A DNA stretch of 38,639 nucleotides. Origin: Candidatus Onthoplasma sp. (lineage in GTDB: Bacteria; Bacillota; Clostridia; Christensenellales; UBA1242). Of the stretch, positions 171 through 32,100 are shown one piece after another; the stretch's first letter is position 1, and each line of letters opens with the position of its first letter. The position numbers and the translations under genes are program-made. The notes under the pieces are model-generated. The model was given only the letters and a program-made list of their open reading frames with translations. It was not told the DNA's origin and did no database searches. The DNA lies in the NCBI GenBank assembly GCA_045637745.1, contig JAZUAB010000009.1, positions 1-38,639 on the forward strand, written 5' to 3'.

Positions 171-767
171 TTATAGAGGACTGCTCGTCTTTAAATATTT
201 ATAAAATGTAGATTTATTCATTTTTAATTTTTGCAAAGCTATGGATAAAGAAATCGCTTTATTTGTATATAACAATACTACCTCTTTATAATTTGATGGC
301 AGCTTATATTTAGGTCTTCCTAAATGTTTGCCTTGCAGTTTTGCAATGCGAATTCCTTCTGCTTGTCGCTTTTTAATATTTTCACGTTCATTTTCAGCAA
401 CAAAGGACAATATTTGTAAAACAATGTCACTAATAAATTTACCTACAAGGTTTTTGCCGTCTATTCTAGTGTCCAACAAAGGCATATCAAGAACAACTAT
501 ATCAACATTAAGCCTATTTACAATATCCTTCCACTCTTCGATAATCATATCATAATTTCTGCCAAGCCTATCAATGCTTTTAATTATAAGTAAATCGCCA
601 CTTTTTAAAAGCGTTTTTAAATTTTGATAATTAGTTCTATCAAAATCTTTGCCACTTTGCTTATCAATAAAAATTTGATTGTCTGATAATCCTTGTTTAT
701 ACATTTCATCCATTTGCCTATCAATGTTTTGATCCCTTGTAGAAACTCTTACATAACCATAATTCAT
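171..767 (-). CDS. Small serine recombinase (resolvase/invertase family) with C-terminal HTH
   Basis: N-terminal YGYVRVSTRDQ catalytic-serine motif, GDLLIIKSIDRLGR, and ENERENIKKRQAEGI. The 198-aa size is typical of Hin/Gin/resolvase enzymes. GTGAGGTG RBS upstream. Confidence 0.9.
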   Translation of the reverse strand: MNYGYVRVSTRDQNIDRQMDEMYKQGLSDNQIFIDKQSGKDFDRTNYQNLKTLLKSGDLLIIKSIDRLGRNYDMIIEEWKDIVNRLNVDIVVLDMPLLDTRIDGKNLVGKFISDIVLQILSFVAENERENIKKRQAEGIRIAKLQGKHLGRPKYKLPSNYKEVVLLYTNKAISLSIALQKLKMNKSTFYKYLKTSSPL

Positions 768-796: not shown

Positions 797-832
797 ATAA
801 AAAACTCTACGAATGAACATAGAGTTTTTTTG
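797..832. terminator. A/T-flanked hairpin between the recombinase gene and the inverted-repeat segment
   Basis: AACTCT (803-808) pairs with AGAGTT (821-826) around a 12-nt loop, with an A-run before and a T-run after. It could terminate in either direction. Confidence 0.35.
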
Positions 833-837
833 TTTGT

Positions 838-854
838 AAAGGTGTACCTTTATA
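838..854. repeat. Left inverted repeat of the candidate invertible segment
   Basis: AAAGGTGTACCTTTATA is the exact reverse complement of 1034-1050. Its core AAAGGT-GT-ACCTTT is a 6-2-6 palindrome. Confidence 0.85.
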
Positions 855-996
855 CACTCCAAGATCATTCTGATATTGTTGTGTATATTACCGTAAAAAC
901 TGGAATTATTGTAATCATTATAGCACATTTATTAAGGAATTTACATAATTTTTAAAAATTTTTATGCAAAAATTTAAATTTGTATCAAAAATGAAG

Positions 997-1026
997 TTGC
1001 TAAGCGGGTTTTACTCAAGTATAAAT
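997..1026 (+). promoter_or_regulatory. Candidate sigma-A promoter inside the invertible segment, facing the methyltransferase gene
   Basis: TTGCTA (997-1002), a 17-nt spacer, then TATAAAT (1020-1026), about 75 nt upstream of the ATG at 1103. Confidence 0.45.
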
Positions 1027-1033
1027 AGAAGAA

Positions 1034-1050
1034 TATAAAGGTACACCTTT
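1034..1050. repeat. Right inverted repeat of the candidate invertible segment
   Basis: TATAAAGGTACACCTTT is the exact reverse complement of 838-854. Its core is AAAGGT-AC-ACCTTT. Confidence 0.85.
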
Positions 1051-1102: not shown

Positions 1103-3124
1103 ATGAGCGAACAACCAGATATAGATATAAAAGAAAATTATATACAATGCTTAGATGATGAACTTTTAAGTATTTTATTAAAAGATAGAAGCTCTGGCAA
1201 AAACATTATCTGGGCTACAGATGTATATGCGGAAAAAGGGTCTTCTTACGATAGCCAAGAGCCTATAACTGTAAAACTTATTACTGGAAGATTTGGAAAA
1301 GTAATCCGTCCTAGAACAGATAAATCAAAGAAAGAACAACAAATAAGAATAAAAGATAAGGCCGAAGTATTTACTCCTTCTTGGATTTGTAATGAAATGA
1401 ATAACCATATCAACGATGAATGGTTTGAAAGAAAAAATATTTTCAACACATCTAATGAAAAGCAGTGGACAACTAACGAAAGTAAAATTAAATTCTCAAA
1501 TGAAGAAGGTAAAACTTGGAAAGATTATGTGCAACTAAAAGTTCTAGAAATATCGTGTGGTGAAGCACCTTTCTTGGTTAGTAGATACGATACTACAACT
1601 GGTCAATGGATAAATGTAGGTGAACGTATTGGTGCTCTTGATAGAAAATTAAGGGTTGTTAATGAAAATACAAACACGGAGCCCGAATGGTATGAATGGG
1701 CTTTAAATGCTATTAAGTCAACCTTTGGTTACGAATGGCAAGGCGATAGTTTGCTTATTGCTAGAGAAAATATACTATTTACATTTATAGATTACTATAT
1801 GGATAGATTTAAAAACTTCCCAATTAAAGAATATTTAATAGAAATTGCCAAAATTCTATCTTGGAATATTTGGCAAATGGATGGTCTGAAATATGTAGTT
1901 CCAAATTCATGTAAGCCAAAACAAGAAAGGCAAATATCTTTATTCCAAGATGAAAAGTGTGAGCCTTGTGTAGGTTGCTTAAAAAATGATAATGGAAAAC
2001 ATATTGGAACTTACTGCAAAATAATGAATTGGGACACAAAAAGAACTATTAAGTTTTATAAAGGAGAAAAACGAATGAAATTTGATTTTGTAATTGGAAA
2101 TCCACCTTATCAAGAAAATATTAAAGATCGAAGTGAACAGCCCCCAGTCTATCATTTTTTCTATGATGCTTCTTTCTCAATAGGTAAAAAAGTATGTTTG
2201 ATTACACCTGCTAGATTTTTATTCAATGCTGGCAAAACTCCTAAAAACTGGAATGAAAAAATTTTATCAGATACTCACTTTAAGGTTATTAAATATGAGG
2301 AAAACTCCAGATTAGTTTTTCCTTCTGTTGAAATAAAGGGAGGCGTTGCAATAACATATAGAGATGAAAATAAAGAGTTTGGTGCTATTGGAAGCTTCTT
2401 AAAAAATGATGTTATGTCTTATATTTTAAATAAGGTAAAAATATATTCTAATAGCTATCTTAATTCTATAATTTATTCTAATACAAGCTACAAGTATACA
2501 AAATATTTAAAAGAAGATTATCCAGAATATTTCATTAAAGATAAAGATGGAAAATCTATCCTTTCTGGTGGATCTGCCAGATATCTAGCGTCATCAGTTT
2601 TTGAAAAATTACCAAACCTATTTTGTAAATCGATACCTAAAGGTTCTAACCATTATATTAAGATTTTAGGAAGAAAAGATAACCACAGGTCAGAACAATA
2701 TATAAAATCAAAATATATAAATCCACCCGACAATTTTACTCTATACAAAGTGTTTATTTCAAGTTCAAATGGAACCGGTGAATTTGGTGAAGTTTTAACG
2801 ACTCCATTTGTAGTAGAACCTAATGTGGGTGCAACTGAGACATTTGTTAGTATTGGTGCTTTTAAATATAAGTTTGAAGCCGATAATCTTGTAAAGTATT
2901 TAAAGACAAAATTTGCCAGAGCATTGCTTGGGACTCTTAAAGTTACTCAAGGAAATAAGAATTCTGATGTGTGGAAAAATGTTCCTCTTCAAGACTTTAC
3001 TGATAAATCAGATATTGATTGGGCAAAATCAATCCATGAAATAGATTTGCAACTTTATTCTAAATATGGATTAGATGAAAAAGAAATTTCCTTTATCGAA
3101 ACACATGTAAAGGAGATGAATTAG
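1103..3124 (+). CDS. N6-adenine DNA methyltransferase (gamma-class motif order, Eco57I/TaqI-like) with a C-terminal target-recognition-like region
   Basis: EVFTPSW (motif X-like), VLEISCGEAPFLV (motif I-like) and FVIGNPPYQ (motif IV, NPPY at 2099-2110). A Cys cluster CEPCVGC...C lies between motifs I and IV. AAGGAG RBS. Confidence 0.8.
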   Translation: MSEQPDIDIKENYIQCLDDELLSILLKDRSSGKNIIWATDVYAEKGSSYDSQEPITVKLITGRFGKVIRPRTDKSKKEQQIRIKDKAEVFTPSWICNEMNNHINDEWFERKNIFNTSNEKQWTTNESKIKFSNEEGKTWKDYVQLKVLEISCGEAPFLVSRYDTTTGQWINVGERIGALDRKLRVVNENTNTEPEWYEWALNAIKSTFGYEWQGDSLLIARENILFTFIDYYMDRFKNFPIKEYLIEIAKILSWNIWQMDGLKYVVPNSCKPKQERQISLFQDEKCEPCVGCLKNDNGKHIGTYCKIMNWDTKRTIKFYKGEKRMKFDFVIGNPPYQENIKDRSEQPPVYHFFYDASFSIGKKVCLITPARFLFNAGKTPKNWNEKILSDTHFKVIKYEENSRLVFPSVEIKGGVAITYRDENKEFGAIGSFLKNDVMSYILNKVKIYSNSYLNSIIYSNTSYKYTKYLKEDYPEYFIKDKDGKSILSGGSARYLASSVFEKLPNLFCKSIPKGSNHYIKILGRKDNHRSEQYIKSKYINPPDNFTLYKVFISSSNGTGEFGEVLTTPFVVEPNVGATETFVSIGAFKYKFEADNLVKYLKTKFARALLGTLKVTQGNKNSDVWKNVPLQDFTDKSDIDWAKSIHEIDLQLYSKYGLDEKEISFIETHVKEMN

Positions 3125-3125
3125 T

Positions 3126-6100
3126 ATGCGAAAGATTAAATTACAAACTTCTGAGAAAGTTGCTCCTATGATCTACGCATATACCACTCCAGGTGTTGTG
3201 TATCATGATGGATGGACTAAGATTGGTTATACTGAAAGAGATGTTGATACTAGAATTAAAGAGCAAACTCAAACTGCGGATATCAAGGCAAAAAAGGAAT
3301 GGCAAGACCTGGCAATCTTTGCAGACGGCAAAACAAGGTTTACAGATAAAGAATTTCACTCATACCTTGCAAAGAACGATATAAAACGAAAAGATCCTCA
3401 ACCTGATACTGAAGGATGCCCAGAATGGTTTTATATTAGCGGTGAGGCGTCTTATGCCCTATTTGGAAAGTTTAGAAGAGATTTGGGTGTGTTGCAAACA
3501 TTGGGCGTTGTGCCTTATGTATTAAGAAATGAACAAAAACAAGCGGTGAATCAAACAAAAAATTATTTTTTAGATGATTCTAACAAAACAGAATTCCTTT
3601 GGAATGCAAAACCTCGATTTGGCAAAACATTGTCAACCTACGACCTATGTAAGTCCTTGCCAAATGTACATAAAATTTTAATTGTTACCAATAGACCAGC
3701 CATTGCAAATTCTTGGTACGATGATTATGTTAAATTTTTAGGTACAGAATCTGGTTACTATTTTGTAAGTAATGTTGACGCTTTGAAAACAAGAAAATAT
3801 GTTTTAAGCAGAGAAAAATACCTGGATAATCTATCATCACTACCTAATCATAAAGGATGCATTGAATTTGTTTCATTACAAGATTTAAAGGGCTCTATTT
3901 ATTTTGGAGTAACAGGCGGACATGATAAGTTAAGAGAAGTGGCGGAACTTGAATGGGATGTTTTAGTTATTGATGAGGCTCATGAAGGTGTTGATACCTA
4001 CAAAACTGACGTAGCGTTTGACCGGATAAAAAGAAGATATACGCTACATTTATCTGGAACACCCTTTAAGGCATTGGCTAATGAAAAATTTCCAGCAAAA
4101 GCAATATACAACTGGACTTATGCCGATGAGCAAAAAGCCAAACAGGAATGGGATTCAACTAGTGAAGAGGAAAACCCATATGCCAATCTTCCACAATTAA
4201 ATTTATTCACCTACAAAATGTCAGATATTGTTAGAGATAAAGTAGAACAAGGTGCTGACTTTGATGAGGATGGACAAAATGAAGCATTTTGCTGGGATTT
4301 AAATGAATTCTTTGAAACTAATGCAAATGGTGAATTTGTTCATGATTCTGCAGTAGATAAATTTTTAGATGCTTTAACAGTACAAGAAAAATTCCCATTT
4401 TCAACTAATGATTTACGTGCAGAATTAAAACATACACTATGGCTACTTAAATATGTTAGCAGTGCCAAAGCTCTTGCTAAAAAATTGCAACGTCATGAAG
4501 TGTTTAAAAACTATAAGATAGTTCTTGCTGCTGGCGATGGGAAGTTAGACAACGAAGGAAATTCAGAAAATGTGTATGCATTAGACAAAAATCTTAAAAA
4601 CTCTTATGATAAAGTTGTTGATGCTATTAAAAATTATTCAAGAACTATAACTATCTCTGTTGGTCAGTTAACTACTGGTATTACAATTCCAGAATGGACT
4701 GCTGTAATGATGCTTTCTAATGTAAAAAGCCCATCACTTTATATGCAATCTGCTTTCAGAGCCCAAAATCCATGTTTATTTAATGAAAATGGTTATAGCC
4801 TACGCAAGCAAAATGCATATGTGTTTGACTTTGATCCAGCTAGAACCTTAAACATTGTTGAAGAGTTCGCAAATGATCTTATTGCCGACACTGCTAATGG
4901 CAGAGGTGACACTAATGCCAGAAAACAAAATGTAAAAGAACTACTAAACTTCTTCCCTGTATATGGTGAAGATGACGAAGGCGAAATGATAGAACTTGAT
5001 GCGGAAAAGGTTCTTTCAATGCCTCGTGCAATACACGCAAAAGAAGTTGTAAGACGTGGGTTTATGAGTAATTTCCTATTTCAGAACATTGGAAATATAT
5101 TTAATGCACCAAAAGAAGTTATTGATATTATACAAAAATTTGATCCAGTTAAAGAGCCTGTTGGGGTTAAAGAAGATACAAAGAACGATTTAAATATTGA
5201 TGACAATGGAAATATCATAATTCCTGAAAAACAAATAATTGGAACTGCTAATGATATTTTTGGTGAAAAGATATATGGCGATATTGAAGCAAGCTTAATA
5301 AATTCAGTAGAAGCTATACAAGAAAATACATTATCTGGTAAAAAAGATGAAAAATTAAATTTATTATTAAAAGAATTTCATACAAACATTACTGATACAC
5401 TTGTTAATACAGCAAAGGCAAATTATGGCAACAATCTGTCAAAATCAACACAACAAGCGTTAGTAAGAAAAATTAATACTACTACCGACATGTTGATAAG
5501 AAAACAATTTGCTGATTATCAAATTAACAGTAATCAACTTGAAAATGAAAGAATAAAAGAGATTGAGCAAGCAAAACAATCTGGAAATTCTAACAATATA
5601 CAACAAATTAACATTAATTTTGATGAGAAGAAAAAGCAAATAGAATCAACTTTTAAGTCTTCAATTCAATCGGAAATTAAAAATATTATAGAAAACACAG
5701 GCAAAACCATTGCTGAAACTGTTGAAAAAGACAACAAAGAAAAACAAAAAAATTCAATAATGGATAATGTTAGAGACCATTTAAGAGGGTTTTCAAGAAC
5801 TATTCCTTCATTTATTATGGCTTATGGAGATGAAAATACAACACTTGAAAATTTTGACACAATAATACCAGATGAAGTATTTAAGGAAGTTACCAGTATT
5901 TCGCTTGATGAGTTTAGAAGACTTAGAGATGGTTTTGATTATACCGATGAGAATGGAAAACAAAATCATTATAATGGGTTCTTTGATTCGATTGTATTTA
6001 ACGACTCCATTAAAGAGTTCTTAAAGAAAAAAGAGGAACTTTCAAATTATTTTGACGATAATTCTAAGGGAGATATATTCGACTATATCCCACCTCAAAA

Positions 6101-6497
6101 AACAAATCAAATCTTTACTCCTAAAAAGGTCGTTCAAGAAATGGTTGATAATTTAGAAAAAGAAAACCCAGGATGTTTTGATAATCCAGACCATACATTT
6201 ATTGATTTATATATGAAATCTGGATTATATATGGCTGAAATAGTAAAACGCCTTTTTAGAAGCAGTAAAATGAAAGAATTATATCCAGACGAGAATAAAA
6301 GACTAGAGCATATTTTTGAAAAACAAGTATTTGGTCTTGCTCCAACAGAAATCATTTATAAAATTGCAGAATCCTTTATTTTAGGATTTGCAAAAGATAA
6401 AGGCATAACTAAACATAATTTAAAACATTTTGACGCTTTACCAGATGCTCAAAACGGAACACTTGAATCAAAACTAGATGAGATTTTTAATAAATAA
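3126..6497 (+). CDS. Multidomain protein: N-terminal T5orf172/GIY-YIG-like domain, SF2 (DEAH) helicase/translocase, Asn/Lys/Gln-rich linker, C-terminal methyltransferase-like domain lacking NPPY. Putative restriction/defence subunit.
   Basis: N-terminus WTKIGYTERDVDTRIKEQ...PEWFYI. Walker A PRFGKT (GKT at 3621-3629), VLVIDEAHEG (DEAH at 3972-3983), LSGTPF, QLTTGITIPEW and QSAFRAQNP. The tail from 6111 reads IFTPKKVVQEMV...FIDLYMKSGLY...VFGLAPTEI. The ATG lies 1 nt after the upstream stop codon. Confidence 0.8.
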   Translation: MRKIKLQTSEKVAPMIYAYTTPGVVYHDGWTKIGYTERDVDTRIKEQTQTADIKAKKEWQDLAIFADGKTRFTDKEFHSYLAKNDIKRKDPQPDTEGCPEWFYISGEASYALFGKFRRDLGVLQTLGVVPYVLRNEQKQAVNQTKNYFLDDSNKTEFLWNAKPRFGKTLSTYDLCKSLPNVHKILIVTNRPAIANSWYDDYVKFLGTESGYYFVSNVDALKTRKYVLSREKYLDNLSSLPNHKGCIEFVSLQDLKGSIYFGVTGGHDKLREVAELEWDVLVIDEAHEGVDTYKTDVAFDRIKRRYTLHLSGTPFKALANEKFPAKAIYNWTYADEQKAKQEWDSTSEEENPYANLPQLNLFTYKMSDIVRDKVEQGADFDEDGQNEAFCWDLNEFFETNANGEFVHDSAVDKFLDALTVQEKFPFSTNDLRAELKHTLWLLKYVSSAKALAKKLQRHEVFKNYKIVLAAGDGKLDNEGNSENVYALDKNLKNSYDKVVDAIKNYSRTITISVGQLTTGITIPEWTAVMMLSNVKSPSLYMQSAFRAQNPCLFNENGYSLRKQNAYVFDFDPARTLNIVEEFANDLIADTANGRGDTNARKQNVKELLNFFPVYGEDDEGEMIELDAEKVLSMPRAIHAKEVVRRGFMSNFLFQNIGNIFNAPKEVIDIIQKFDPVKEPVGVKEDTKNDLNIDDNGNIIIPEKQIIGTANDIFGEKIYGDIEASLINSVEAIQENTLSGKKDEKLNLLLKEFHTNITDTLVNTAKANYGNNLSKSTQQALVRKINTTTDMLIRKQFADYQINSNQLENERIKEIEQAKQSGNSNNIQQININFDEKKKQIESTFKSSIQSEIKNIIENTGKTIAETVEKDNKEKQKNSIMDNVRDHLRGFSRTIPSFIMAYGDENTTLENFDTIIPDEVFKEVTSISLDEFRRLRDGFDYTDENGKQNHYNGFFDSIVFNDSIKEFLKKKEELSNYFDDNSKGDIFDYIPPQKTNQIFTPKKVVQEMVDNLEKENPGCFDNPDHTFIDLYMKSGLYMAEIVKRLFRSSKMKELYPDENKRLEHIFEKQVFGLAPTEIIYKIAESFILGFAKDKGITKHNLKHFDALPDAQNGTLESKLDEIFNK

Positions 6498-6526
6498 GAA
6501 CGGACTAACTATCCGTTCTTTTTTAT
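6497..6526 (+). terminator. Rho-independent terminator of the methyltransferase/helicase operon
   Basis: AGAACGGA pairs with TCCGTTCT (8-bp stem, 7-nt loop), followed by a T-run, starting immediately at the stop codon. Confidence 0.8.
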
Positions 6527-6580
6527 TGGATTATTCACTCACGCGTGCGTTATCTATTATATATATTACAAAATAGTTAA

Positions 6581-6734: not shown

Positions 6735-7590
6735 CGAACGGACAAATGCAGTCCGAACGGAATTTATAAAATAATTGTGAATTTTGTTTTCGATATGCCA
6801 AATGGTGGCATATCGAAAATTTTAAAATAAATTTGTCCGATGCACCAAACGTGTGTGCATCGGGATTATTAAAATTTATTTATAACCTGCCCAAATGGTG
6901 GGCAAGTTAGTTTGTTAAAATACCTATAGATTCAAATAAAGTAATAAAAATTCCCCGTATCACAAGCCGTGTGTGATGCGACAATTATATATTTTATTTG
7001 TAAAATATCCCTTGCAGTATCAAATGGTGCTACAGCGAAATTGTTAAAATTTAATTGCAACGTGTCCAAATGGTGGACACATTAACATTGTAAAATGTTT
7101 TCCGATACGACAAATAGTGTCGGAACGAGAATATTAAAATCTTGAAAAATAATCCCGTTACACCAAATGTTGGTGGATCGGTCTTAGTAAAATGAAGGAG
7201 GAATTTATGAAAAAGTTTTCAAAATATTTCCCGAGTGTTCAAACGATGAACAGGCGGGATTAGTAAAATACTTAAAAATAATTCCGTATTGGCAAATGGT
7301 GTCAATGCGAAAGTATTAAAATTCTTAAAAAATATTTCCCGTGTTATCAAATGGTGATAATACGGCTCTAGTAAAATAACTATAAAAATATTCTCCGTAT
7401 TGGCAAATGGTGTCCCAACGGGAGTGATAAAATTTCATTAAAAAGATTTCCCGATGTGCAAAATGCTTGCACAACGGGATTGCTAGAATGAGATAAATTT
7501 TAGGTGTATCAAAGGTTGATATACCTAGTTAACTAGAATAATTACATAACCAAATAAAAATTGGTTTTACCGATGGACTGCAGCCGTCGT
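6735..7590 (+). repeat. Tandem array of about 16 hairpin units (spacing 44-76 bp, mostly about 46-57) with conserved loop and flanks and covarying stems
   Basis: Unit consensus is (T)CCCG-N-variable arm-CAAATGGTG-complementary arm-N-CGGG(A), then TAAAAT/TAGAAT, then an A/T-rich spacer. One example is a perfect 14-bp stem at 6787-6800/6806-6819 with loop AATGG. Hairpin centres lie near 6747, 6803, 6850, 6896, 6968, 7025, 7071, 7115, 7168, 7244, 7297, 7352, 7408, 7464, 7514 and 7579. Confidence 0.85.
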
Positions 7591-7658: not shown

Positions 7659-8312
7659 ATGAGAGATTTTATATTTGAATTTGAACAAAAACAAGCATTA
7701 AAGTTTAATTTAAAGTTAAATGAGCTTCTATTGCTTGACTACATGTTGAAATTCTTCACATCAGATCAAATTAGAAAAAAACAAAAAGGAGAGAGATTAT
7801 ATTGTAAATTAACCTACAATAAGGTTTTAACGGATCTTCCAATTCTTAGAATAAAGGAAAGGCAATTAAGAAACATGATAATCCAATTAGAAAATAAAGG
7901 TTTTGTAGAAAGGTTATCAGAACTTAAAAACCAAATGTATCTGTATGTTGATTTTGACAGGTTGCTCGGCACTGATTTGCTGTTTGGTTCTAATGGACAA
8001 GCAATAAATTTCCTAAATGTCGGTAAGAATTTGCCAACAATAGATAATTATAATATTAAAAAAATAAAAATAAATGTTACTAACGCGCGTATACAAGAAC
8101 TAGATTTGGATTTGTTTAATAGTGAATTACATAAGCTTTTAAAAGAAAAAGTTAGTAAAGTATCATATGATTTATTCTTTAATAGTATTAAAGCCTGCCA
8201 AGTAGATGCTGATGAAATTATATTTGATGCTAAATATAAAGAGCAGATTGAAAAATCATTTATGAACAAATTTACATCTATTGTAAATGAAGCTGTATCT
8301 AATATAACCTAA
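7659..8312 (+). CDS. Winged-helix protein, putative replication initiator/organizer (RepA_N- or DnaD-like N-terminus)
   Basis: LNELLLLDYMLKFF...LTYNKVLTDLPILRIKERQLRNMIIQLENKGFVERL resembles wHTH plasmid/phage initiator N-domains. Strong AAAGGAG RBS. Repeat arrays flank it on both sides. Confidence 0.4.
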   Translation: MRDFIFEFEQKQALKFNLKLNELLLLDYMLKFFTSDQIRKKQKGERLYCKLTYNKVLTDLPILRIKERQLRNMIIQLENKGFVERLSELKNQMYLYVDFDRLLGTDLLFGSNGQAINFLNVGKNLPTIDNYNIKKIKINVTNARIQELDLDLFNSELHKLLKEKVSKVSYDLFFNSIKACQVDADEIIFDAKYKEQIEKSFMNKFTSIVNEAVSNIT

Positions 8313-8825: not shown

Positions 8826-9044
8826 ATGAAAAGAATTAGAACTATTACAGAAACATTACAAATGCTAAAAACCGAAGATCCAAATACTGGACTTAGCGAA
8901 TTTTTAATAAGAAAACTTGCAAACAATCACAAGATCCGTTCATTTAAGACGGGCAACAAAATATTAGTTGACTACGATTCATTGATGGCGTTCTTGCAAA
9001 GTCAAGATTATGACCTACCAATGGAACAAATCGTGGTTAGATAA
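8826..9044 (+). CDS. Excisionase-like HTH DNA-binding protein (Xis/DUF6462-like)
   Basis: 72 aa reading IRTITETLQMLKTEDPNTGLSEFLIRKL...FKTGNKILVDYDSLMAFL, immediately upstream of the integrase. GGAGG RBS. Confidence 0.65.
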   Translation: MKRIRTITETLQMLKTEDPNTGLSEFLIRKLANNHKIRSFKTGNKILVDYDSLMAFLQSQDYDLPMEQIVVR

Positions 9045-9057
9045 AAGGAGAAAACAT

Positions 9058-10449
9058 ATGGCATGTATACAAAAAAATAAACTACAAGACGGTTCAGTGT
9101 CTTACCGAATTCAAGTAAAGGCAAAGAACATACGAACTGGAAAGTTTGAAGCCAAATCAATCACTTGGCGCAAACCTTTAGATATAACCGAAAATCAAGC
9201 AAAGAAAGAACTTAATCGTATCGCCGTCGATTTAGAAGAAAAGTTCAATAAGCAACTTAATGGCCTTCTTTCACTAGACAATGAAGTAACCTTTATTGAC
9301 TATGCTGAAAGGTGGCTAGAAAAAATCAATCATACTCGCTCACTCAACTACTATATACGAGGTCGAGATAGTATAAGAAAATTCCATAAATACTTTGGCA
9401 ATATTAAACTAAATCAAATAACGCCCGTTATGGTGCAAGGTTTTATAGACGAAATGGTGTCTAAAAAGTATGAAAAGAAATCAGCAATACTTACTGGCGA
9501 CATCAATCAGTATTTAAAGTCGCATCGTATCAAGCAGATTGATATTATTAGGCAAAGTGGACTTTCAAAATCCATTTTCGTATCAGCAAATGCTAAACAT
9601 AGCATAAGAATTGAAAATGCTCAAAAGATATGCGATGCGATTGGAATTAACTACGATGATTACTTTACAACAGAGATAAAAAGCCAACATTATGCCAAAG
9701 AAACAGTTTTAAGATACAAAAGGATGTTACACACAATACTAGCCGATGCTAAAAGGCAAAGGCTGGTGGAACATAATTTTGCATCAAGCGACTATTTAAC
9801 GCCAATTAAAGGCTATAAAAAAGAAATTAAAATACTTAATGATAAAGAGGCAAAGGTTCTAGCCAACTATTTACACACCGAACCTAATCCAAGATGGAAA
9901 ATCGCATTGTTTATAGTATTATTTATGGGATTAAGGCGTGGCGAACTTGCTGGCCTAGAGTGGAAAGATATTGACTATGAAAACAAAACTATGACAATCG
10001 CAAGGTCGGTGCAAGATATTCCAGGCTTTGGCCTTATCACAAAAGAACCTAAAACCGAAAACTCAAAACGCACAATCTCAATGCCAAATAAACTAATTAA
10101 TTACTTAAAGGAATATGAAATTTATTGGCACGAACAAAAAGCATATCTTGGCGACCGCCTTGGCAATACCGACCGATTATTCTGCACCGAAGATGGCACA
10201 AACATCTCCCCTGGTATGTTTATAGTGTGGCTACATAAAACCCTAGACAAAGCAGGCTTGCCACAAGTCTCACTCCACTCACTACGCCACACAAACATAA
10301 CCTTACAACTAATCGCAGGTGTAGATATGAAAACAGTCTCCACCCGTGCAGGCCACTCAAAAGCATCAACTACTAGCGACTTCTATAGCCACTTCATCAA
10401 GAACTCCGACATCCACGCCAGCGAAATAATTAATAAAATTTTTGAATAA
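9058..10449 (+). CDS. int: Tyrosine site-specific integrase (Tn916/phage-integrase family) with an internal XRE-like HTH insertion
   Basis: Catalytic signature GLRRGELAGLEW (R), LHSLRHT (HxxR) and TSDFYSH (Y). The start was moved from 9010 to the ATG at 9058, which follows AAAAGGAG. Confidence 0.9.
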   Translation: MACIQKNKLQDGSVSYRIQVKAKNIRTGKFEAKSITWRKPLDITENQAKKELNRIAVDLEEKFNKQLNGLLSLDNEVTFIDYAERWLEKINHTRSLNYYIRGRDSIRKFHKYFGNIKLNQITPVMVQGFIDEMVSKKYEKKSAILTGDINQYLKSHRIKQIDIIRQSGLSKSIFVSANAKHSIRIENAQKICDAIGINYDDYFTTEIKSQHYAKETVLRYKRMLHTILADAKRQRLVEHNFASSDYLTPIKGYKKEIKILNDKEAKVLANYLHTEPNPRWKIALFIVLFMGLRRGELAGLEWKDIDYENKTMTIARSVQDIPGFGLITKEPKTENSKRTISMPNKLINYLKEYEIYWHEQKAYLGDRLGNTDRLFCTEDGTNISPGMFIVWLHKTLDKAGLPQVSLHSLRHTNITLQLIAGVDMKTVSTRAGHSKASTTSDFYSHFIKNSDIHASEIINKIFE

Positions 10450-10513
10450 AGTAAAAATAATGATGACATTTTATCAATTTTATGATATAATTTCTTCATA
10501 CAAAGGAGTTGTT

Positions 10514-11620
10514 ATGGCATACAAAGAAAGAAAAAATATTTATAAAAAAATTGAAGAAAAAAGAAATAGACCATTAATTGTCTATGTAACATCTATAAGA
10601 CCTAATCTTTCCAGCAATATGGGTGGTGATGCCATCGCAGAAATAATAGAGCAAATTCAACTAATTCCTGAAGACAAAAAAGAAGTTGATTTTATGATTA
10701 TAAGCAATGGCGGTGATGCCATTGTGGCTCTTAGAATAATAAGTATGTTAAGAGAGAGATTTGACAAGGTGTCTGTATTGTTGCCATATGTTGCTTATAG
10801 TGCAGCAACAATCTTATCTTTAGGTGCGGACGATATAGTAATGCATCCATTTTCGAACCTTGGACCCATAGATCCACAGCTCACAACAATTAAAAAGAAT
10901 CAGCAAGGACAAACAGAACAAAGAAGTTTTAGCTCGGAAGATTTAAGGAACTTTATTGATTTTATAAAAACAGATGTTGGCGTTACAGACCAACAACATT
11001 TAATTACTGCTATATCTCCTTTGCTAAATGATATAGGAGCATTACCAATAGGGAACGCTAAGAGAAGCCAGCAATTATCTCTATCTTTAAGTGAAAAAAT
11101 GCTTAATTTACATTTGCAAGACAAAAACAAGAGTAAAAATATTGCTAAACAATTAAATTCTTCATATTATCATCATGGGTATGCTGTCGGAAGAAAAGAA
11201 GCTCAAGAAATTGGGCTTGATATTGTTATTCCAGACAATGAACTGGAAAATTTATTATGGGAAGTTTGGCAAGACTTTTCTAATGAAATGAACGCAAATA
11301 CAGTATTTGATCCCGTAAGAGAACTTTTTACAAATCCAGAATCAAGTGAAATTTTATCAAAAGTTCCAGTCGTGGAAATTCCTGCTAACACTCCACAACC
11401 TTTGATACAAAATTTGTATGTACAATTATCTCAACAGGCTGCAAGAGTTGAAAATAAACCAACAATCAGAATGAAACATTTAATTGCATCTATTGAAAGC
11501 ACAAATTTAGCCAAAGCTTCATATGCTAATAGTGATATAGCTTATTGGAGGAACATGGATATGAGTATAGGTTTTAATTGTACTATATTCCCAACAGGTT
11601 GGACAAAATATAATCAATAG
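10514..11620 (+). CDS. ClpP/SppA-fold serine protease of the SDH (serine dehydrogenase proteinase) type
   Basis: RPLIVYVTS...FMIISNGGDAIVALRIISMLRERF...LLPYVAYSAATILSLGADDIVMHPFSNLGPIDPQ. The start was moved to the ATG at 10514, which follows AAAGGAG. Confidence 0.7.
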   Translation: MAYKERKNIYKKIEEKRNRPLIVYVTSIRPNLSSNMGGDAIAEIIEQIQLIPEDKKEVDFMIISNGGDAIVALRIISMLRERFDKVSVLLPYVAYSAATILSLGADDIVMHPFSNLGPIDPQLTTIKKNQQGQTEQRSFSSEDLRNFIDFIKTDVGVTDQQHLITAISPLLNDIGALPIGNAKRSQQLSLSLSEKMLNLHLQDKNKSKNIAKQLNSSYYHHGYAVGRKEAQEIGLDIVIPDNELENLLWEVWQDFSNEMNANTVFDPVRELFTNPESSEILSKVPVVEIPANTPQPLIQNLYVQLSQQAARVENKPTIRMKHLIASIESTNLAKASYANSDIAYWRNMDMSIGFNCTIFPTGWTKYNQ

Positions 11621-11629
11621 GAGGATAAG

Positions 11630-11824
11630 ATGAATAATAATTTCATAACAAATTCATTAAAGTTTAATGAATATAATCCTTTTACAATAAGTTCAACGCA
11701 TACTGATATTGTTCGGATTAGTGGAACAATTCCTAAAGAAGAAGTGGAAAAATTGTCTAAAAGGAAAGAAAAACCAACCACAAGAGATATTAAAATAAAA
11801 AAAAATAAAAAGACGCCTAATTAA
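11630..11824 (+). CDS. Small hypothetical protein (64 aa, Lys-rich C-terminus), probably co-transcribed with the protease
   Basis: A strong TAGGAGG RBS lies 6 nt before the ATG, there is a 9-nt gap after the protease stop, and a terminator overlaps its own stop codon. Confidence 0.55.
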   Translation: MNNNFITNSLKFNEYNPFTISSTHTDIVRISGTIPKEEVEKLSKRKEKPTTRDIKIKKNKKTPN

Positions 11825-11836
11825 GCGTCTTTTTTG
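11807..11836 (+). terminator. Rho-independent terminator at the island edge
   Basis: AGACGC (11810-11815) pairs with GCGTCT (11824-11829), followed by a T-run. It ends 2 nt before the tRNA 3' end. Confidence 0.8.
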
Positions 11837-11838
11837 TA

Positions 11839-11915
11839 TGGTGTGAGTAGGCAGATTTGAACTGCCGGCCTGTCGCTTAGGAGGCGACCGCTCTATCCAG
11901 CTGAGCTATACCCAC
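11839..11915 (-). tRNA. tRNA-Arg (anticodon CCU) with encoded CCA
   Basis: The minus strand reads GUGGGUA-UA-GCUC-AGCUGGAUA-GAGC-G-GUCGC-CUCCUAA-GCGAC-AGGCC-GGCAG-UUCAAAU-CUGCC-UACUCAC-A-CCA. This is a full cloverleaf with one G-U pair in the acceptor stem. Confidence 0.9.
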
Positions 11916-29189: not shown

Positions 29190-32100
29190 TTATCTCACTT
29201 TCATTCTTGTTCTTAACCAGATTACTGTTCCAATTAAACCAACAACAATTAAAACAATTATTACAATCAATATAATTGCCACAGTATTTAATGGTTCCTT
29301 AATTGTAAAGTTAAGACTTGTTAAAACATTCCCACTATCACCAACTAATTGAACGTAATATTCTCCAACACCTGTTATTTCTCTTTCAACAAGACCTGTT
29401 GTTGTATGATCAATACGCATAATCTCTTGTCCATTTACAACTAAGATGCACTCTCCAACCTGATCATAAACATTTTCCGCGTTAAATTTTAATACAACAG
29501 GTTTTGTTGTTTTTTCGCCAGGCTTAATTGATGTGGTAATGGTAGGCTTTGCGTTATTTAATGTAAATGAAAATTCCACTTCGCGAGTAGGCAATAATGG
29601 ATCGTCATTTACTCGATATAACATTTTAAACTTCATTTTACCTTGAGTAGCAGTTCCAAATGTCTCTACCAAACGATCATAAGTTACCAACTTGTTGTAC
29701 ACATCAACACCACCAACATTTGCCTTATCTTGCAACATTCCAACAAATTTGCTTGTAACATCAATTTCCGTCGTCTTTAGTACGCTAAATACCGACACTA
29801 TTTCATACCCATAAATAGATGTGAAATCAAGAGCGTTTCTAGCCTCATTTGGATTAAGTATTGTGAATATTAGTTGAGTTGAAACTTCTTCTCCAGTGCT
29901 TAATAAATCTGCAGTAATATTAACAACATACGTTCCATAATCTTTAAAAATATATCTTAATGAATTTGTAGGATGCTCATAACCTTTATAGTTTGGAGTT
30001 CCATTTAAGTTCACATTAATTTCAATAGAGCTAGGAACATAATTGTTAAGCCCAGTAATCTCATTGTAGTCATTTATCTGTAAAGTTACAGGCTTATCAT
30101 AGTAAGCATATTGAATAGGCGCGCTACCAATACTTGAATCATCATCTCCGACCTTAACAGTATACAATATATCATTTTTCTTCATCAGTACAATTGTGAA
30201 TCTGTCTAACGTACTAGTTGACGTCTTGAAATATTGTACATTACCGGCATAATCTTGAATCTTCAACGTATAACTTCCACTATTCTTAAAATTAATTTCG
30301 CTTAAATCATTATTTGCATTACCCACAATTCTGCTAGAAGACTTTTCATCGTTATTATAGTATATATCTATAATTATTCGATTGTGTTGTTCTAATGGGT
30401 TTGTGTTATAGTGATTTTTGTTATACGAACTAAATTTCAACTTATAGTATTCTGCATCTGCATCGTATATCGATTTAGATGTTCCGCTTGATAATAAGTT
30501 GTGTTGATCTGCTTGTTCGCTTCCAGTCATAAATAATAATTGCGATAAAATACTTGTAGAAGCATCAGTTTCACGCACTTCCATTGTTACTACAAATGTG
30601 CGATAATTAGATCTATGCACATGATACAGCCTTATAATTGCTGTTCCTGTCATAAGTTCACAATAATCTGCCTTCACTCCATTATCTTCATTACTATGTA
30701 ATATTAATGCTTGGGCATAATTGCTGTCGTTTACATCAATAATTTTATTCTTTGCAATATACATTTTAATTGCTGTTTGTTTGCCAAAACTGTTAATTGC
30801 AGTCTTCATATGACTTTCATTATCAAAGCCCAAGCTTTCACACTGCCTTAACAAATTACTTTCGCCAAACGTCTCAATAACTTCATCTAAATTGGTAAGC
30901 GTTGCTGGATCGCAAATATTATCGTTAGCGTCACGAACTTCATATAGTCCAGAAATAGTAGTTGACATCGCGATACCATACACACGAGATGCTATCCATT
31001 CATCAGCCTTATCTTTAATAGTGACTACGAAAACATATTTACCCGTGTTGTCAGGGTTAGGTGCAAGTGGATAACTTTCTTCACCTCCCTTTAACAATTG
31101 TTTAGGTGGATCGTTTTGGTTACGAAATTCATATAGGTCATAAGTATAAATAAAGTAATCGCTGGTTGATTTGGTCCACGAAATATTAACTGTTTCAGCT
31201 ATTAAATCTTTATAGTACTTTCCATCACGCAAGTCAATTGTATTGTACTCCTCCGTATTATTAAATGTGGATTTAATCATTGAGATTTTATCTTCATAAT
31301 TGGTGTTTTCAATTCTAAACAATGTTGACGTCGTATCAATCACAACTTTATATGTATGCGTAGCATCACTTTCATCAAGCAATTTTATTTCTACATCAAA
31401 ATTACGGCAAGAACCTTCATCTTCTGGATTTAGAGGTGTGTCAGCATATAAGGTGATATACGCGTATTTGCCTTTCTCCTCGTAACCGTAATGAGTGCCT
31501 TCCGTTGCTGGACCGCTATCTAATAGCACATCCGCTGTATAAAAGTCAATGTTATATGAAATCTTGATATCTGTTGCCGTATATAACACACCAGTAGGTT
31601 GATAAACATTGTCTGGCAAATCAATATATTGATAGTGGTAATAACCTTCAGTGGTTGAAATCCTCAACTTATAATCGTTATTTGCAATATCAGTTAATGT
31701 GATTAAATATTGAATATTGTCGGCTAAATCTAGTCTGTCCGAAGCAGTTTCACTACGCAATTTAACTTCAGTAATATTATCATAATTCTGCCCCTCTGGA
31801 ACTGTAAGCGTAGTTAAGCCATTATCAAAACTTGCGTTGTATGATAATGTGTGTTCATCTCCATTTGTCGCCTTATATTTCACTTCAACCTTTTTTACAT
31901 ACCACCAAGTATTTGTATCAATTTTATTATTTACTTCGCTTAATAATATATACTTCTGTCCAAATTCTCCTTTCTTCCATGACAAGTCAGTCTTCAGCCT
32001 ATAATCTTCGCTATTATATGTATTGATGGCTAGCAAATAGGTTTTTCCATATACGTCCACAAATTCAAGTCTGTAGTTACCCTGGTTTTTAACAATTTCT

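What the first reader, a model, noticed from the sequence alone, without database searches (positions are those of the whole stretch)
1103..6497. Two-gene restriction-modification-like defence candidate: complete N6A methyltransferase plus a T5orf172-like/SF2 helicase carrying a truncated methyltransferase-like tail (split Type ISP-like layout)
Gene 1 has gamma-class motifs in the order X, I, IV (EVFTPSW, LEISCGEAPF, NPPY) plus a long C-terminal region that could act in target recognition. A Cys cluster (CEPCVGC...C) is inserted between motifs I and IV.

Gene 2 starts 1 nt after gene 1 ends. Its N-terminal GYTERDV...R..EQ...PEWF module looks like the T5orf172/MUG113 branch of the GIY-YIG superfamily. 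This is followed by a full SF2 motor (GKT, DEAH, SGTPF, QSAFRAQNP) and a roughly 300-aa low-complexity linker. The C-terminus reproduces methyltransferase motifs X, I and II-III (IFTPKKVVQEMV, FIDLYMKSGLY, VFGLAPTEI), but it has a degenerate SAM-binding glycine loop and no NPPY.

Classical Type III Res subunits carry a C-terminal PD-(D/E)xK nuclease. Type ISP enzymes (LlaGI, LlaBIII) fuse an Mrr nuclease, helicase, methyltransferase and TRD in one chain. This locus looks like neither. It resembles a Type ISP split into two genes, with the nuclease replaced by a GIY-YIG-like module and a vestigial methyltransferase domain that may dock onto the true methyltransferase. The island context and the putative phase switch fit a defence role.
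Basis: partly seen in the sequence, partly recalled or inferred. Interest (0 to 1): 0.7.

Follow-up and report, generated by a model that had tools for sequence, protein, structure and literature searches.

The report
Phase-variable split Type ISP-like restriction system
This is a two-gene, helicase-driven restriction-modification system related to the single-chain Type ISP enzymes, with a different nuclease, its methyltransferase parts distributed over two proteins, and an invertible promoter as on/off switch; it belongs to a very large family that nobody appears to have studied biochemically.

Summary

- **Gene 1 (1103-3124)** is a complete gamma-class N6-adenine methyltransferase with a hypervariable C-terminal target-recognition region.
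- **Gene 2 (3126-6497)** has four parts: a T5orf172/GIY-YIG domain, an SF2 ATPase with intact motifs, a long helical spacer, and a conserved methyltransferase N-half (motifs X, I, II, III, no NPPY).
- **Closest solved structure.** The gene 2 model matches the Type ISP enzyme LlaBIII best.
- **Relatives.** In 1430-1560-aa relatives the same tail runs straight into NPPY plus the recognition domain. Those relatives always carry a small upstream gene equal to gene 1's N-half.
- **Module shuffling.** The family has two paralogous N-halves and one catalytic/recognition C-half. The C-half can be free, fused to N', or fused to the helicase tail.
- **The tail is not vestigial.** It is as conserved as the helicase core.
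- **Phase switch.** A 179-bp segment (855-1033) flanked by perfect 17-nt inverted repeats, next to a serine recombinase gene, occurs in both orientations in close relatives. It carries an extended -10 promoter that points away from gene 1 here (OFF).

The locus is a new variant of a known kind in a very common family. Restriction activity itself is inferred.

The parts
171..767 (-). Serine recombinase (resolvase/invertase family, 198 aa), the likely invertase of the adjacent promoter switch
   Evidence: Pfam Resolvase 3e-26. Conserved at 75-84% identity in the same position and orientation in close relatives L002, L003, L005, L006 and L008.
799..830 (-). Terminator-like hairpin between the switch and the recombinase gene
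   Evidence: 13-bp stem followed by a T-run on the minus strand. A role in stopping transcripts from the OFF-oriented promoter is inferred.
838..854 (.). Left inverted repeat of the invertible element (AAAGGTGTACCTTTATA)
   Evidence: 17 nt, 100% complementary to 1034-1050. The same core repeat (AAAGGTGTACCTTT) occurs in five related loci.
855..1033 (.). Invertible 179-bp promoter segment. Its extended -10 (TGCTATAAT) lies on the minus strand at 925-917, so it faces away from gene 1 (OFF state).
   Evidence: The homologous segment has the window's orientation in L002, L005 and L008 and is reverse-complemented in L003 and L006; the reverse complement of L002 aligns with L003 at score 129 of 162. 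TGnTATAAT is conserved in all six copies and faces gene 1 only in L003 and L006.
1034..1050 (.). Right inverted repeat of the invertible element
1103..3124 (+). Gene 1: complete gamma-class N6-adenine DNA methyltransferase with a C-terminal target-recognition domain (673 aa)
   Evidence: Pfam Eco57I 5e-19. PADLOC MTase_II models match both halves. AF2 pLDDT 87.3, pTM 0.73. Foldseek matches over nearly the full length to CamA, M.BseCI, BREX PglX/BrxX, LlaBIII, LlaGI, BpuSI and MmeI.
1103..2062 (+). Module N' (aa 1-320): SAM-binding N-half with motif X (1364-1384), motif I (1544-1573), motif II (TFGYE) and motif III (NIWQMDG), then a Cys-rich connector (1910-2017)
   Evidence: PADLOC PDLC03390 2e-120. 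N' is a separate gene of 307-361 aa in 22 related loci, and a 246-254-aa gene in the single-chain systems. Identity among relatives is 70-84%.
2063..3121 (+). Module C (aa 321-673): catalytic half with NPPY (2099-2110), hypervariable target-recognition region (aa ~421-560, nt 2363-2782), and a conserved C-terminal DIDW...QLY.KYGL..EI.FIE motif
   Evidence: PADLOC PDLC03375 6e-28 and the C-terminus of Type IIG model PDLC03626 7e-25. Identity falls to 24-36%, with indels, across aa 421-540, against 60-80% elsewhere. Module C is free-standing, fused to N', or fused to the helicase tail in relatives.
3126..3485 (+). Gene 2, aa 1-120: T5orf172/MUG113 (GIY-YIG superfamily) putative nuclease domain
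   Evidence: Pfam T5orf172 at 20.6 bits here. Relatives score up to 32 bits, or hit MUG113. Y17, K32 and G34 are invariant; R43, H78 and E100 are nearly invariant or invariant. T5orf172 nuclease activity has precedent in ICP1 Gp88/Odn (PMC8263062).
3507..5045 (+). Gene 2, aa ~128-640: SF2 helicase-like ATPase with two RecA-like lobes (Walker A, DEAH at 3972-3983, SGTP, QxxFRxQNP)
   Evidence: Pfam ResIII 4e-12 and a weak Helicase_C hit. The motif residues are invariant across 46 and 121 sequences. Foldseek: LlaBIII is the top hit; ZorD, ISWI/SNF2, RadD, EcoR124I HsdR and SauUSI follow.
5046..5765 (+). Gene 2, aa ~641-880: long alpha-helical spacer, poorly conserved in sequence
   Evidence: AF2 predicts helices 741-767, 773-818 and 822-890. 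Identity among diverse relatives is 11-16%.
5766..6494 (+). Gene 2, aa 881-1123: conserved pre-methyltransferase segment plus a methyltransferase N-half (motif X at 996, motif I variant DLYMKSG at 1027, beta2 VFGLAP at 1068, beta3 with D1103). It has no motif IV.
   Evidence: 915 representative proteins match at E <= 1e-3. In the 1360-1560-aa relatives the tail continues into NPPY and the recognition domain. hhalign against the N' profile gives E 8e-5 with collinear motifs. AF2 predicts beta1-alphaA-beta2-alphaB-beta3. Identity is 53-62%, like the helicase core.
6497..6528 (+). Intrinsic terminator-like hairpin ending the gene 1-gene 2 operon (GAACGGA...TCCGTTC followed by a T-run)
   Evidence: Read directly from the sequence.
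9010..10449 (+). Tyrosine integrase of the island that carries the system. tRNA-Arg(CCT) at 11839-11915 (-) is the likely integration site.
   Evidence: Pfam Phage_integrase 3e-18. tRNA found by ARAGORN and Rfam.

Best explanation
The locus encodes a phase-variable, ATP-dependent restriction-modification system of the Type ISP kind, divided between two co-translated proteins.

**Proposed mechanism (inferred).**
- Gene 1 (N'-C) recognises an asymmetric target through its variable C-terminal domain and methylates adenine, which protects host DNA.
- Gene 2 supplies the restriction functions: a GIY-YIG-type (T5orf172) nuclease and an SF2 double-stranded-DNA translocase.
- Gene 2 is joined to the recognition subunit through its conserved C-terminal methyltransferase N-half and the segment before it.
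- By analogy with LlaGI and LlaBIII, an unmethylated site would trigger ATP-driven translocation and DNA cutting away from the site.
- An invertible promoter, flipped by the adjacent serine recombinase, switches the operon on and off. In this assembly it points away from the genes.

**Shown here.** Domain identities, intact catalytic motifs, homology of the tail to the true N-half of single-chain relatives, module shuffling across the family, and both orientations of the switch in relatives.

**Inferred.** Assembly of the two proteins, translocation, cleavage, the defence phenotype, and which switch orientation is ON.
For: - **Domains and motifs:**
- **Gene 1 fold:** a complete methyltransferase plus recognition domain by AF2 and Foldseek. 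Matches include CamA, PglX, LlaBIII, LlaGI, BpuSI and MmeI.
- **Gene 2 fold:** the model's best PDB match is LlaBIII at E 2e-11 over 1092 columns. That is about 200-fold better than the next unrelated hit. LlaGI aligns over 1038 columns.
- **Single-chain relatives:** they have T5orf172, helicase, tail, NPPY and the recognition domain in one chain. Some sources name them 'restriction endonuclease'.
- **Linkage of the pair:** every one of 86 related loci with enough flanking DNA has gene 1 modules next to the helicase gene. Gene 1 (35-65% identity) diverges faster than gene 2 (53-84%), mostly in aa 421-540, as expected for a specificity determinant.
- **Operon structure:** a 1-nt gap with an internal ribosome-binding site, and a terminator after gene 2.
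- **Switch:**
- **Mobile and defence context:** integrase and tRNA here; PDC-S06, Abi_2, Schlafen-like, Hhe/PDC-S37-like and DUF262-type neighbours in relatives; frequent on Enterococcus and lactic-acid-bacteria plasmids.
- **Literature:** it already anticipated relatives of Type ISP and IIL enzymes with helicase subunits and GIY-YIG nucleases (PMC3553950; PMC2731913).
Against: - No member of this family was found to have been characterised. Sequence profiles of the family find no significant PDB relative.
- PADLOC has no model that matches gene 2 convincingly.
- The Foldseek match to LlaBIII has a low TM-score (0.23), as expected for a flexible multi-domain model. Global superposition is therefore not shown.
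- The analogous B. subtilis trio DnmA-YeeB-YeeC (methyltransferase, helicase, T5orf172) gave no restriction or phage protection, although Vibrio homologues did (PMC9973331).
- T5orf172 domains can be domesticated as non-cutting DNA binders, a use suggested only by a title returned (a 'domesticated endonuclease' in a phage satellite; the paper was not read).
- The role of a second, orphan N-half is unexplained by the simple Type ISP model.
- The promoter is in the putative OFF orientation here, so expression in this organism is uncertain.
Confidence: 0.7

Rival explanations
1. Epigenetic switch (phasevarion) or relic. Gene 1 acts as a phase-variable orphan methyltransferase that changes gene expression, and gene 2 no longer restricts DNA. 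This is what was concluded for B. subtilis DnmA-YeeB-YeeC.
For: - The inverton gives ON/OFF methylation.
- The component-wise analogous B. subtilis cluster showed no restriction or phage defence (PMC9973331).
Against: - Gene 2 is under strong purifying selection along its nuclease, ATPase and tail regions, with all catalytic residues invariant over hundreds of lineages.
- The pair is strictly co-inherited and horizontally mobile.
- The variable recognition region is typical of an arms-race specificity determinant.
Confidence: 0.12
2. Methylation-guided defence without classical cleavage, like BREX or DISARM. The helicase-T5orf172 protein would block replication or bind DNA at unmethylated sites rather than cut it.
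For: - The gene 1 fold resembles BREX PglX/BrxX.
- T5orf172 has been proposed to have DNA-binding roles (PMC9973331).
- Zorya ZorD is the third-ranked Foldseek hit for gene 2.
Against: - The GIY-YIG catalytic Tyr, Arg and Glu are conserved.
- None of the BREX or DISARM accessory genes is present, and no PADLOC BREX, DISARM or Zorya model matches.
- LlaBIII, a cutting enzyme, is the best structural match.
Confidence: 0.08
3. A function of the mobile element itself. A GIY-YIG homing-type nuclease plus helicase would serve transfer, replication or homing of the island, with the methyltransferase acting as anti-restriction protection of the element.
For: - T5orf172 domains occur in phage homing endonucleases (titles; PMC8263062).
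- The locus sits on an integrative island next to recombinases.
- Relatives occur on plasmids.
Against: - The pair occurs in many unrelated element backgrounds and chromosomal sites, with only the two or three system genes conserved.
- The recombinase next to it is explained by the inverton.
- The variable recognition domain and the methyltransferase coupling fit restriction-modification.
Confidence: 0.05

Closest known systems
Type ISP restriction-modification enzymes (LlaGI, LlaBIII)
   Same: - Same order of functions: N-terminal nuclease, SF2 translocase, helical connector, gamma-class adenine methyltransferase, C-terminal recognition domain.
- LlaBIII is the best PDB match of the gene 2 model. 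LlaBIII and LlaGI also match the gene 1 model.
- Relatives carry all these parts in one chain.
   Different: - The nuclease is T5orf172/GIY-YIG, not Mrr-type PD-(D/E)xK.
- The system is split into two proteins here (three in many relatives).
- There is an extra paralogous methyltransferase N-half.
- Profile searches against PDB sequences detect no similarity.
DnmA(YeeA)-YeeB-YeeC clusters (MmeI-like methyltransferase + SF2 helicase + T5orf172/GIY-YIG protein)
   Same: - Same three functional components.
- The methyltransferase gene comes first.
- Horizontally acquired and found in defence islands.
- Defence was shown for Vibrio homologues (PMC9973331; PMC2731913).
   Different: - Gene 1 has no MmeI-family Pfam domains, only Eco57I.
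- Here the nuclease domain is fused to the N-terminus of the helicase.
- The helicase carries a methyltransferase N-half.
Type III restriction-modification (EcoP15I-like Mod/Res)
   Same: - Two-gene methyltransferase plus ATPase-nuclease layout.
- Pfam ResIII domain.
- Probably an asymmetric target.
   Different: - The methyltransferase has the gamma motif order with a C-terminal recognition domain, not a beta-class Mod with an internal one.
- The nuclease is N-terminal GIY-YIG, not C-terminal PD-(D/E)xK.
Type IIG/IIL enzymes and monomeric gamma methyltransferases (Eco57I, MmeI, BpuSI, DrdV, CamA, BREX PglX)
   Same: The gene 1 fold and its Eco57I-type catalytic domain with a C-terminal recognition domain.
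   Different: Gene 1 has no nuclease of its own, and its partner is an ATP-dependent motor.
Invertible promoters (invertons) controlled by serine invertases
   Same: Perfect 17-nt inverted repeats, an adjacent serine recombinase, a promoter inside the segment, and both orientations observed among relatives.
   Different: Inversion was not observed within this sample itself. The ON and OFF assignment rests on a conserved extended -10 only.

Membership tests
Type ISP restriction-modification enzymes | All functions in a single polypeptide | tested here: not met
   There are two ORFs here. Relatives range from three genes to one large chain plus a small N' gene.
Type ISP restriction-modification enzymes | N-terminal Mrr-family PD-(D/E)xK nuclease | tested here: not met
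   The N-terminus matches T5orf172/MUG113 of the GIY-YIG superfamily instead.
Type ISP restriction-modification enzymes | SF2 helicase-like ATPase followed by a connector and a gamma-class adenine methyltransferase with a C-terminal recognition domain | tested here: met
   ResIII domain and invariant ATPase motifs. Helical spacer and methyltransferase N-half in gene 2. Catalytic half and recognition domain in gene 1. The parts are contiguous in the single-chain relatives.
Type ISP restriction-modification enzymes | Structural similarity to LlaBIII/LlaGI | tested here: inconclusive
   LlaBIII is the top Foldseek hit (E 2e-11, 1092 columns) and LlaGI aligns over 1038 columns, but the TM-score is only 0.2. 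There is no sequence-level PDB hit.
Type ISP restriction-modification enzymes | ATP-driven translocation from the site, with cleavage on collision of two head-to-head enzymes | not testable with these tools
   This needs biochemistry.
Type III restriction-modification | Beta-class Mod with an internal recognition domain; Res with a C-terminal PD-(D/E)xK nuclease | tested here: not met
   The motif order is X, I, IV, with a C-terminal variable region. The nuclease-like domain is N-terminal T5orf172, and the C-terminus of gene 2 is a methyltransferase N-half.
DnmA-YeeB-YeeC type clusters | MmeI-family methyltransferase lacking the nuclease domain | tested here: not met
   Gene 1 gives no MmeI-family Pfam hit at E <= 1; it hits only Eco57I and, weakly, UPF0020.
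DnmA-YeeB-YeeC type clusters | Separate helicase and T5orf172 genes downstream of the methyltransferase | tested here: not met
   Here the T5orf172 domain and the helicase are one protein. Direct comparison with the YeeB and YeeC sequences was not possible because they were not available.
GIY-YIG superfamily, T5orf172/MUG113 branch | Pfam match plus conserved GIY Tyr, catalytic Arg and metal-binding Glu | tested here: met
   T5orf172 scores 20.6 bits here and up to 32 bits in relatives, and MUG113 also hits. Y17, R43 and E100 are invariant or present in at least 90% of sequences. Assignment of these residues to catalytic roles is by analogy.
Gamma-class N6-adenine DNA methyltransferase (Eco57I-type) | Motifs X, I, II, III, IV (NPPY) in this order, a complete Rossmann-type fold, and a recognition domain | tested here: met
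   For gene 1. For the gene 2 tail only motifs X to III are present, the first Gly of motif I is Lys, and the motif II acid is Ala.
Invertible promoter switch (inverton) | Inverted repeats, an adjacent invertase, and both orientations observed | tested here: met
   Both orientations are seen among close relatives, not within this sample.

The most novel reading that the evidence does not exclude
The catalytic/recognition C-half may be able to pair with either of two paralogous N-halves.

- Pairing with the canonical SAM-binding N' would give a methylation-competent enzyme.
- Pairing with the helicase-tethered N-half would couple site recognition to the motor and nuclease. This N-half has a Lys in place of the first motif I Gly and lacks the motif II acid.
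- The choice between modification and restriction would then be made by exchange of half-domains.

This reading would explain three observations. Every layout of the family keeps two N-halves and one C-half. The C-half is found fused to either N-half or free. The 'orphan' N-half is always strongly conserved.
Probability: 0.15. Interest if true: 0.8.

Novelty: new variant of a known kind. Interest (0 to 1): 0.55.

Why it matters
- **Abundance.** The family is very common. Both protein searches saturated at 8000 candidates, and 915 distinct 50%-identity clusters carry the tail. It occurs in gut Clostridia, Collinsella, Bifidobacterium, Alphaproteobacteria, Listeria, Enterococcus and Staphylococcus, and on lactic-acid-bacteria plasmids.
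- **A blind spot in current tools.** I found no biochemical study of the family, and PADLOC does not recognise the helicase-nuclease partner. The methyltransferase would therefore be scored as an orphan, and many apparent 'orphan' methyltransferases in gut metagenomes may belong to active restriction systems.
- **Evolution and mechanism.** The natural shuffling of methyltransferase half-domains between subunits shows how single-chain and multi-subunit ATP-dependent restriction enzymes interconvert. It also offers a handle on how such enzymes choose between methylating and cutting.
- **Population heterogeneity.** The inverton adds phase-variable defence and methylation in a Christensenellales-like (Clostridia) bacterium; the closest relatives come from gut metagenomes.

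Tried and rejected
- **PDB sequence searches found nothing useful.**
  - Both proteins alone gave no meaningful hit.
  - The profile of the two-gene helicase family found only weak UvrB/XPD Walker-region hits.
  - The profile of the single-chain family found only coiled-coil noise.
- **NCBIfam** gave no useful hit.
- **BLASTP of gene 1 against the tail** found only the motif X match at E 0.24. Paralogy needed profiles (E 8e-5, probability 60%) and the single-chain relatives.
- **Type III membership** was rejected on motif order and nuclease position.
- **MmeI/DnmA family membership** was rejected because gene 1 has no MmeI Pfam domains.
- **The split genes in relatives are not frameshift artefacts.** The 4-nt and 11-nt gene overlaps recur in independent lineages, and PADLOC has separate 327- and 348-position models for the two halves.
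- **A comparable inverted repeat next to the distantly related recombinases of the alphaproteobacterial loci** turned up in only one of seven (L023, 15 nt). The switch is therefore clade-specific.
- **One literature search was uninformative**.
- **A complex of gene 1 with the tail could not be modelled.** No multimer tool was available, and the natural fusion P0187 could not be submitted: it exceeds the size limit and came from a search whose proteins the tool does not accept.
- **Two Pfam calls failed** on the residue limit.

Full report
**Observation.** The window contains two co-oriented ORFs, 1103..3124 (673 aa) and 3126..6497 (1123 aa). A single base separates them, a Shine-Dalgarno sequence lies inside the end of gene 1, and a hairpin plus T-run follows gene 2. 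The two genes therefore form one operon.

**Gene 1.**
- It matches Pfam Eco57I (5e-19, aa 302-406).
- It matches two REBASE-derived PADLOC methyltransferase models that split it cleanly. PDLC03390 covers aa 7-319 (2e-120). PDLC03375 covers aa 322-672 (6e-28). The C-terminus of a Type IIG model also matches.
- AlphaFold2 (AF2) with 120 homologues gives a confident model (pLDDT 87, pTM 0.73).
- The model aligns over almost its whole length with monomeric gamma-class adenine methyltransferases that carry a C-terminal recognition domain. These include CamA, M.BseCI, BREX PglX/BrxX, LlaBIII, LlaGI, BpuSI, MmeI and DrdV.
- Among 120 homologues, aa 421-540 are hypervariable (24-36% identity, with indels) while the rest is 60-84% identical. 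This is the signature of a target-recognition domain.
- The Cys cluster lies in the connector between beta3 and beta4. It is modelled with low confidence and is conserved only in close relatives.

**Gene 2.**
- The N-terminal 120 aa match T5orf172 just above Pfam's cut-off.
- Of 8 diverse two-gene-type relatives, 7 hit T5orf172 or MUG113 at E <= 0.01. Of 6 longer relatives, 5 do the same. Most of these hits are above Pfam's cut-off.
- The residues that correspond to the GIY Tyr, the catalytic Arg and the metal-binding Glu (Y17, R43, E100) are invariant or nearly so.
- T5orf172 belongs to the GIY-YIG superfamily, and one member, ICP1 Gp88/Odn, is described as a nuclease (PMC8263062).
- Residues ~128-640 are an SF2 ATPase (ResIII 4e-12) with invariant Walker A, DEAH, SGTP and QxxFRxQNP motifs.
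- Residues ~641-880 are not low-complexity in the structural sense. AF2 predicts three very long helices, and sequence conservation there is only 11-16%.
- Residues 881-1123 are again well conserved (53-62%, like the helicase core). From aa ~1000 they are predicted as helix(X)-beta1-alphaA-beta2-alphaB-beta3 at pLDDT 84-91.

**The tail is a genuine methyltransferase N-half.**
- A search of 1.84 billion representative proteins with aa 880-1123 found 915 proteins at E <= 1e-3.
- Most carry the domain at the C-terminus of ~1100-aa helicases.
- In 1360-1560-aa relatives the same sequence (IFTPK..VV..M / F.DLYMKSG / QVYG.AP) runs on into KFD.VIGNPPYQ. It then continues into a region homologous to gene 1 aa 320-673, down to the C-terminal DIDW...QLY.KYGLS..EI.FIE motif.
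- Pfam finds T5orf172/MUG113, ResIII and Eco57I in these proteins.
- In P0177 the N6_Mtase model spans residues 1039-1193. That range runs from motif X (1041) through FIDLYVKSG (1070) and QIFGIAPS (1112) to GNPPY (1186).
- A profile-profile comparison of the tail with gene 1's N-half aligns motifs X, I and II collinearly (E 8e-5, probability 60%).

**Single-chain relatives and the small N' gene.**
- The single-chain family of ~1430-1458 aa occurs in Bacillus, Listeria, Enterococcus, Staphylococcus and others. [quoted passage not shown]
- In six genomic contexts examined, a 246-254-aa gene immediately precedes and usually overlaps the large gene (Listeria, Staphylococcus, Falseniella, Ureibacillus and an E. 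faecium plasmid). On Pediococcus plasmid pRS5 the upstream gene is 306 aa.
- That small protein is homologous to gene 1's N-half. It carries canonical motifs X (HGEVFTPK), I (FLEPAAGEGAF), II (LYGIEL) and III, and has no NPPY.

**Module shuffling.** Three modules can be defined: N' (gene 1 aa 1-320), C (gene 1 aa 321-673) and the helicase tail. All 86 related loci plus the window were classified on that basis.

| Layout | Loci |
|---|---|
| [N'-C][T5orf172-helicase-tail], including the window | 33 |
| [N'][C][T5orf172-helicase-tail], three genes | 22 |
| [small N'][T5orf172-helicase-tail-C] | 8 |

- In the three-gene layout, 4-nt or 11-nt gene overlaps recur in Alphaproteobacteria, Olsenella and Eggerthellaceae.
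- A few loci place the methyltransferase modules downstream of the helicase gene or on both sides of it.
- One representative, P0187, fuses everything in the order tail-N'-C.
- The family therefore always keeps two paralogous N-halves and one catalytic/recognition C-half. Only the covalent attachment of C changes.
- In every layout the tail has Lys in place of the first motif I Gly and Ala-Pro where motif II normally has the ribose-binding acid. N' keeps the canonical residues.
- The tail is thus a conserved, probably SAM-binding-impaired half-domain, not a decaying vestige. What it does (docking, regulation or alternative pairing with C) is not shown by any data here.

**Relation to known systems.**
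- The AF2 model of gene 2 (pLDDT 75) has the Type ISP enzyme LlaBIII as its best PDB match (E 2e-11, 1092 aligned columns).
- LlaGI follows with 1038 columns. The other hits are generic SF2 or SNF2 motors: ZorD, ISWI, RadD, RIG-I/MDA5, EcoR124I HsdR and SauUSI.
- TM-scores are low (~0.2), as expected for a flexible four-domain model, and profiles do not detect PDB relatives by sequence.
- The system therefore works like a Type ISP enzyme but is not a member in the strict sense. The nuclease fold differs and the system is split.
- It is not Type III, because the motif order is gamma, the recognition domain is C-terminal, and the nuclease is N-terminal GIY-YIG.
- It shares its components with the DnmA-YeeB-YeeC clusters, but gene 1 lacks MmeI-family domains and the nuclease is fused to the helicase.
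- Earlier papers noted, without characterisation, that relatives of MmeI and Type ISP enzymes exist with helicase partners and GIY-YIG nucleases (PMC2731913; PMC3553950).
- PADLOC recognises gene 1 only as a Type II methyltransferase and does not recognise gene 2.

**Phase switch.**
- A serine recombinase gene lies at 171-767 on the minus strand (Pfam Resolvase 3e-26).
- Between it and gene 1 lie perfect 17-nt inverted repeats (838-854 and 1034-1050) around a 179-bp segment.
- Five close relatives keep the recombinase (75-84% identity) and the repeat core.
- The inner segment has the window's orientation in L002, L005 and L008, and the reverse orientation in L003 and L006. The reverse complement of L002 aligns with L003 at score 129 of 162.
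- All six copies contain TGnTATAAT. It faces gene 1 in L003 and L006 and faces away in the window (minus strand, 925-917), where a terminator-like hairpin (799-830) follows it.
- The switch is therefore real at the level of the clade. The ON and OFF assignment is inferred from the promoter motif.
- Only one of seven alphaproteobacterial loci showed a comparable repeat.

**Context.**
- The operon lies on an island with a tyrosine integrase (9010-10449) and an SDH/ClpP-like protease, next to tRNA-Arg(CCT) at 11839-11915. Housekeeping genes follow.
- Relatives sit beside PADLOC defence candidates or Abi and Schlafen-like genes.
- Relatives also occur on 85 plasmid records, mostly from Enterococcus and lactic acid bacteria.

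**Verdict.**
- The most likely function is a phase-variable, ATP-dependent, Type ISP-like restriction-modification system with a GIY-YIG-type nuclease (confidence about 0.7).
- Restriction, complex formation and the role of the second N-half are inferred.
- The locus is one member of a very large, uncharacterised family, so it counts as a new variant of a known kind.
- The most interesting open point is the conserved 'two N-halves, one C-half' design.

Noticed in passing
window 6787-7420: An array of nine short palindromic hairpins with the conserved loop CAAATGGTG (two variants) lies on the + strand. It sits between the operon terminator and ORF 7659-8312 (217 aa, no Pfam hit). Nine of the window's 14 + strand matches to the loop pattern fall in these ~600 nt. 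It may be iterons, an origin, or protein-binding sites of the island.
   Followed up: partly
window 9010-11915: A tyrosine integrase (9010-10449) overlaps a ClpP-like SDH-type serine protease gene (10442-11620) and is followed by tRNA-Arg(CCT) at 11839-11915 (-). This is probably the integration end of the island that carries the system. The other end lies outside the window.
   Followed up: partly
protein P0138 (1381 aa, representative library): This variant of the helicase protein has the tail followed by an unrelated ~280-aa C-terminal extension instead of the catalytic/recognition half. The extension contains a D...DFKVSK motif (PD-(D/E)xK-like) and has no Pfam match.
   Followed up: no
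L072, L067, L079, L065: In some Selenomonadales relatives the methyltransferase modules lie downstream of the helicase gene or on both sides of it. This suggests two methyltransferases or exchangeable specificity modules.
   Followed up: no
L029-L042 (Collinsella): In most Collinsella copies N' (430 aa) and C (338 aa) are separate ORFs that overlap by ~180 nt, while L032 and L078 have a fused 708-aa gene. This could be a frameshift (perhaps phase-variable) rather than a designed split.
   Followed up: no
L081 10980-13286; L082 8870-11176: In Listeria and Staphylococcus a 768-aa AAA_13 ATPase follows the single-chain relatives. The Listeria copy matches PADLOC candidate PDC-S06 at 1e-241, and both loci have a RadC gene upstream. 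This looks like a conserved defence-island arrangement.
   Followed up: partly
window 29190-38636 (-): A very large ORF (3148 aa) runs to the end of the window. It was not examined.
   Followed up: no
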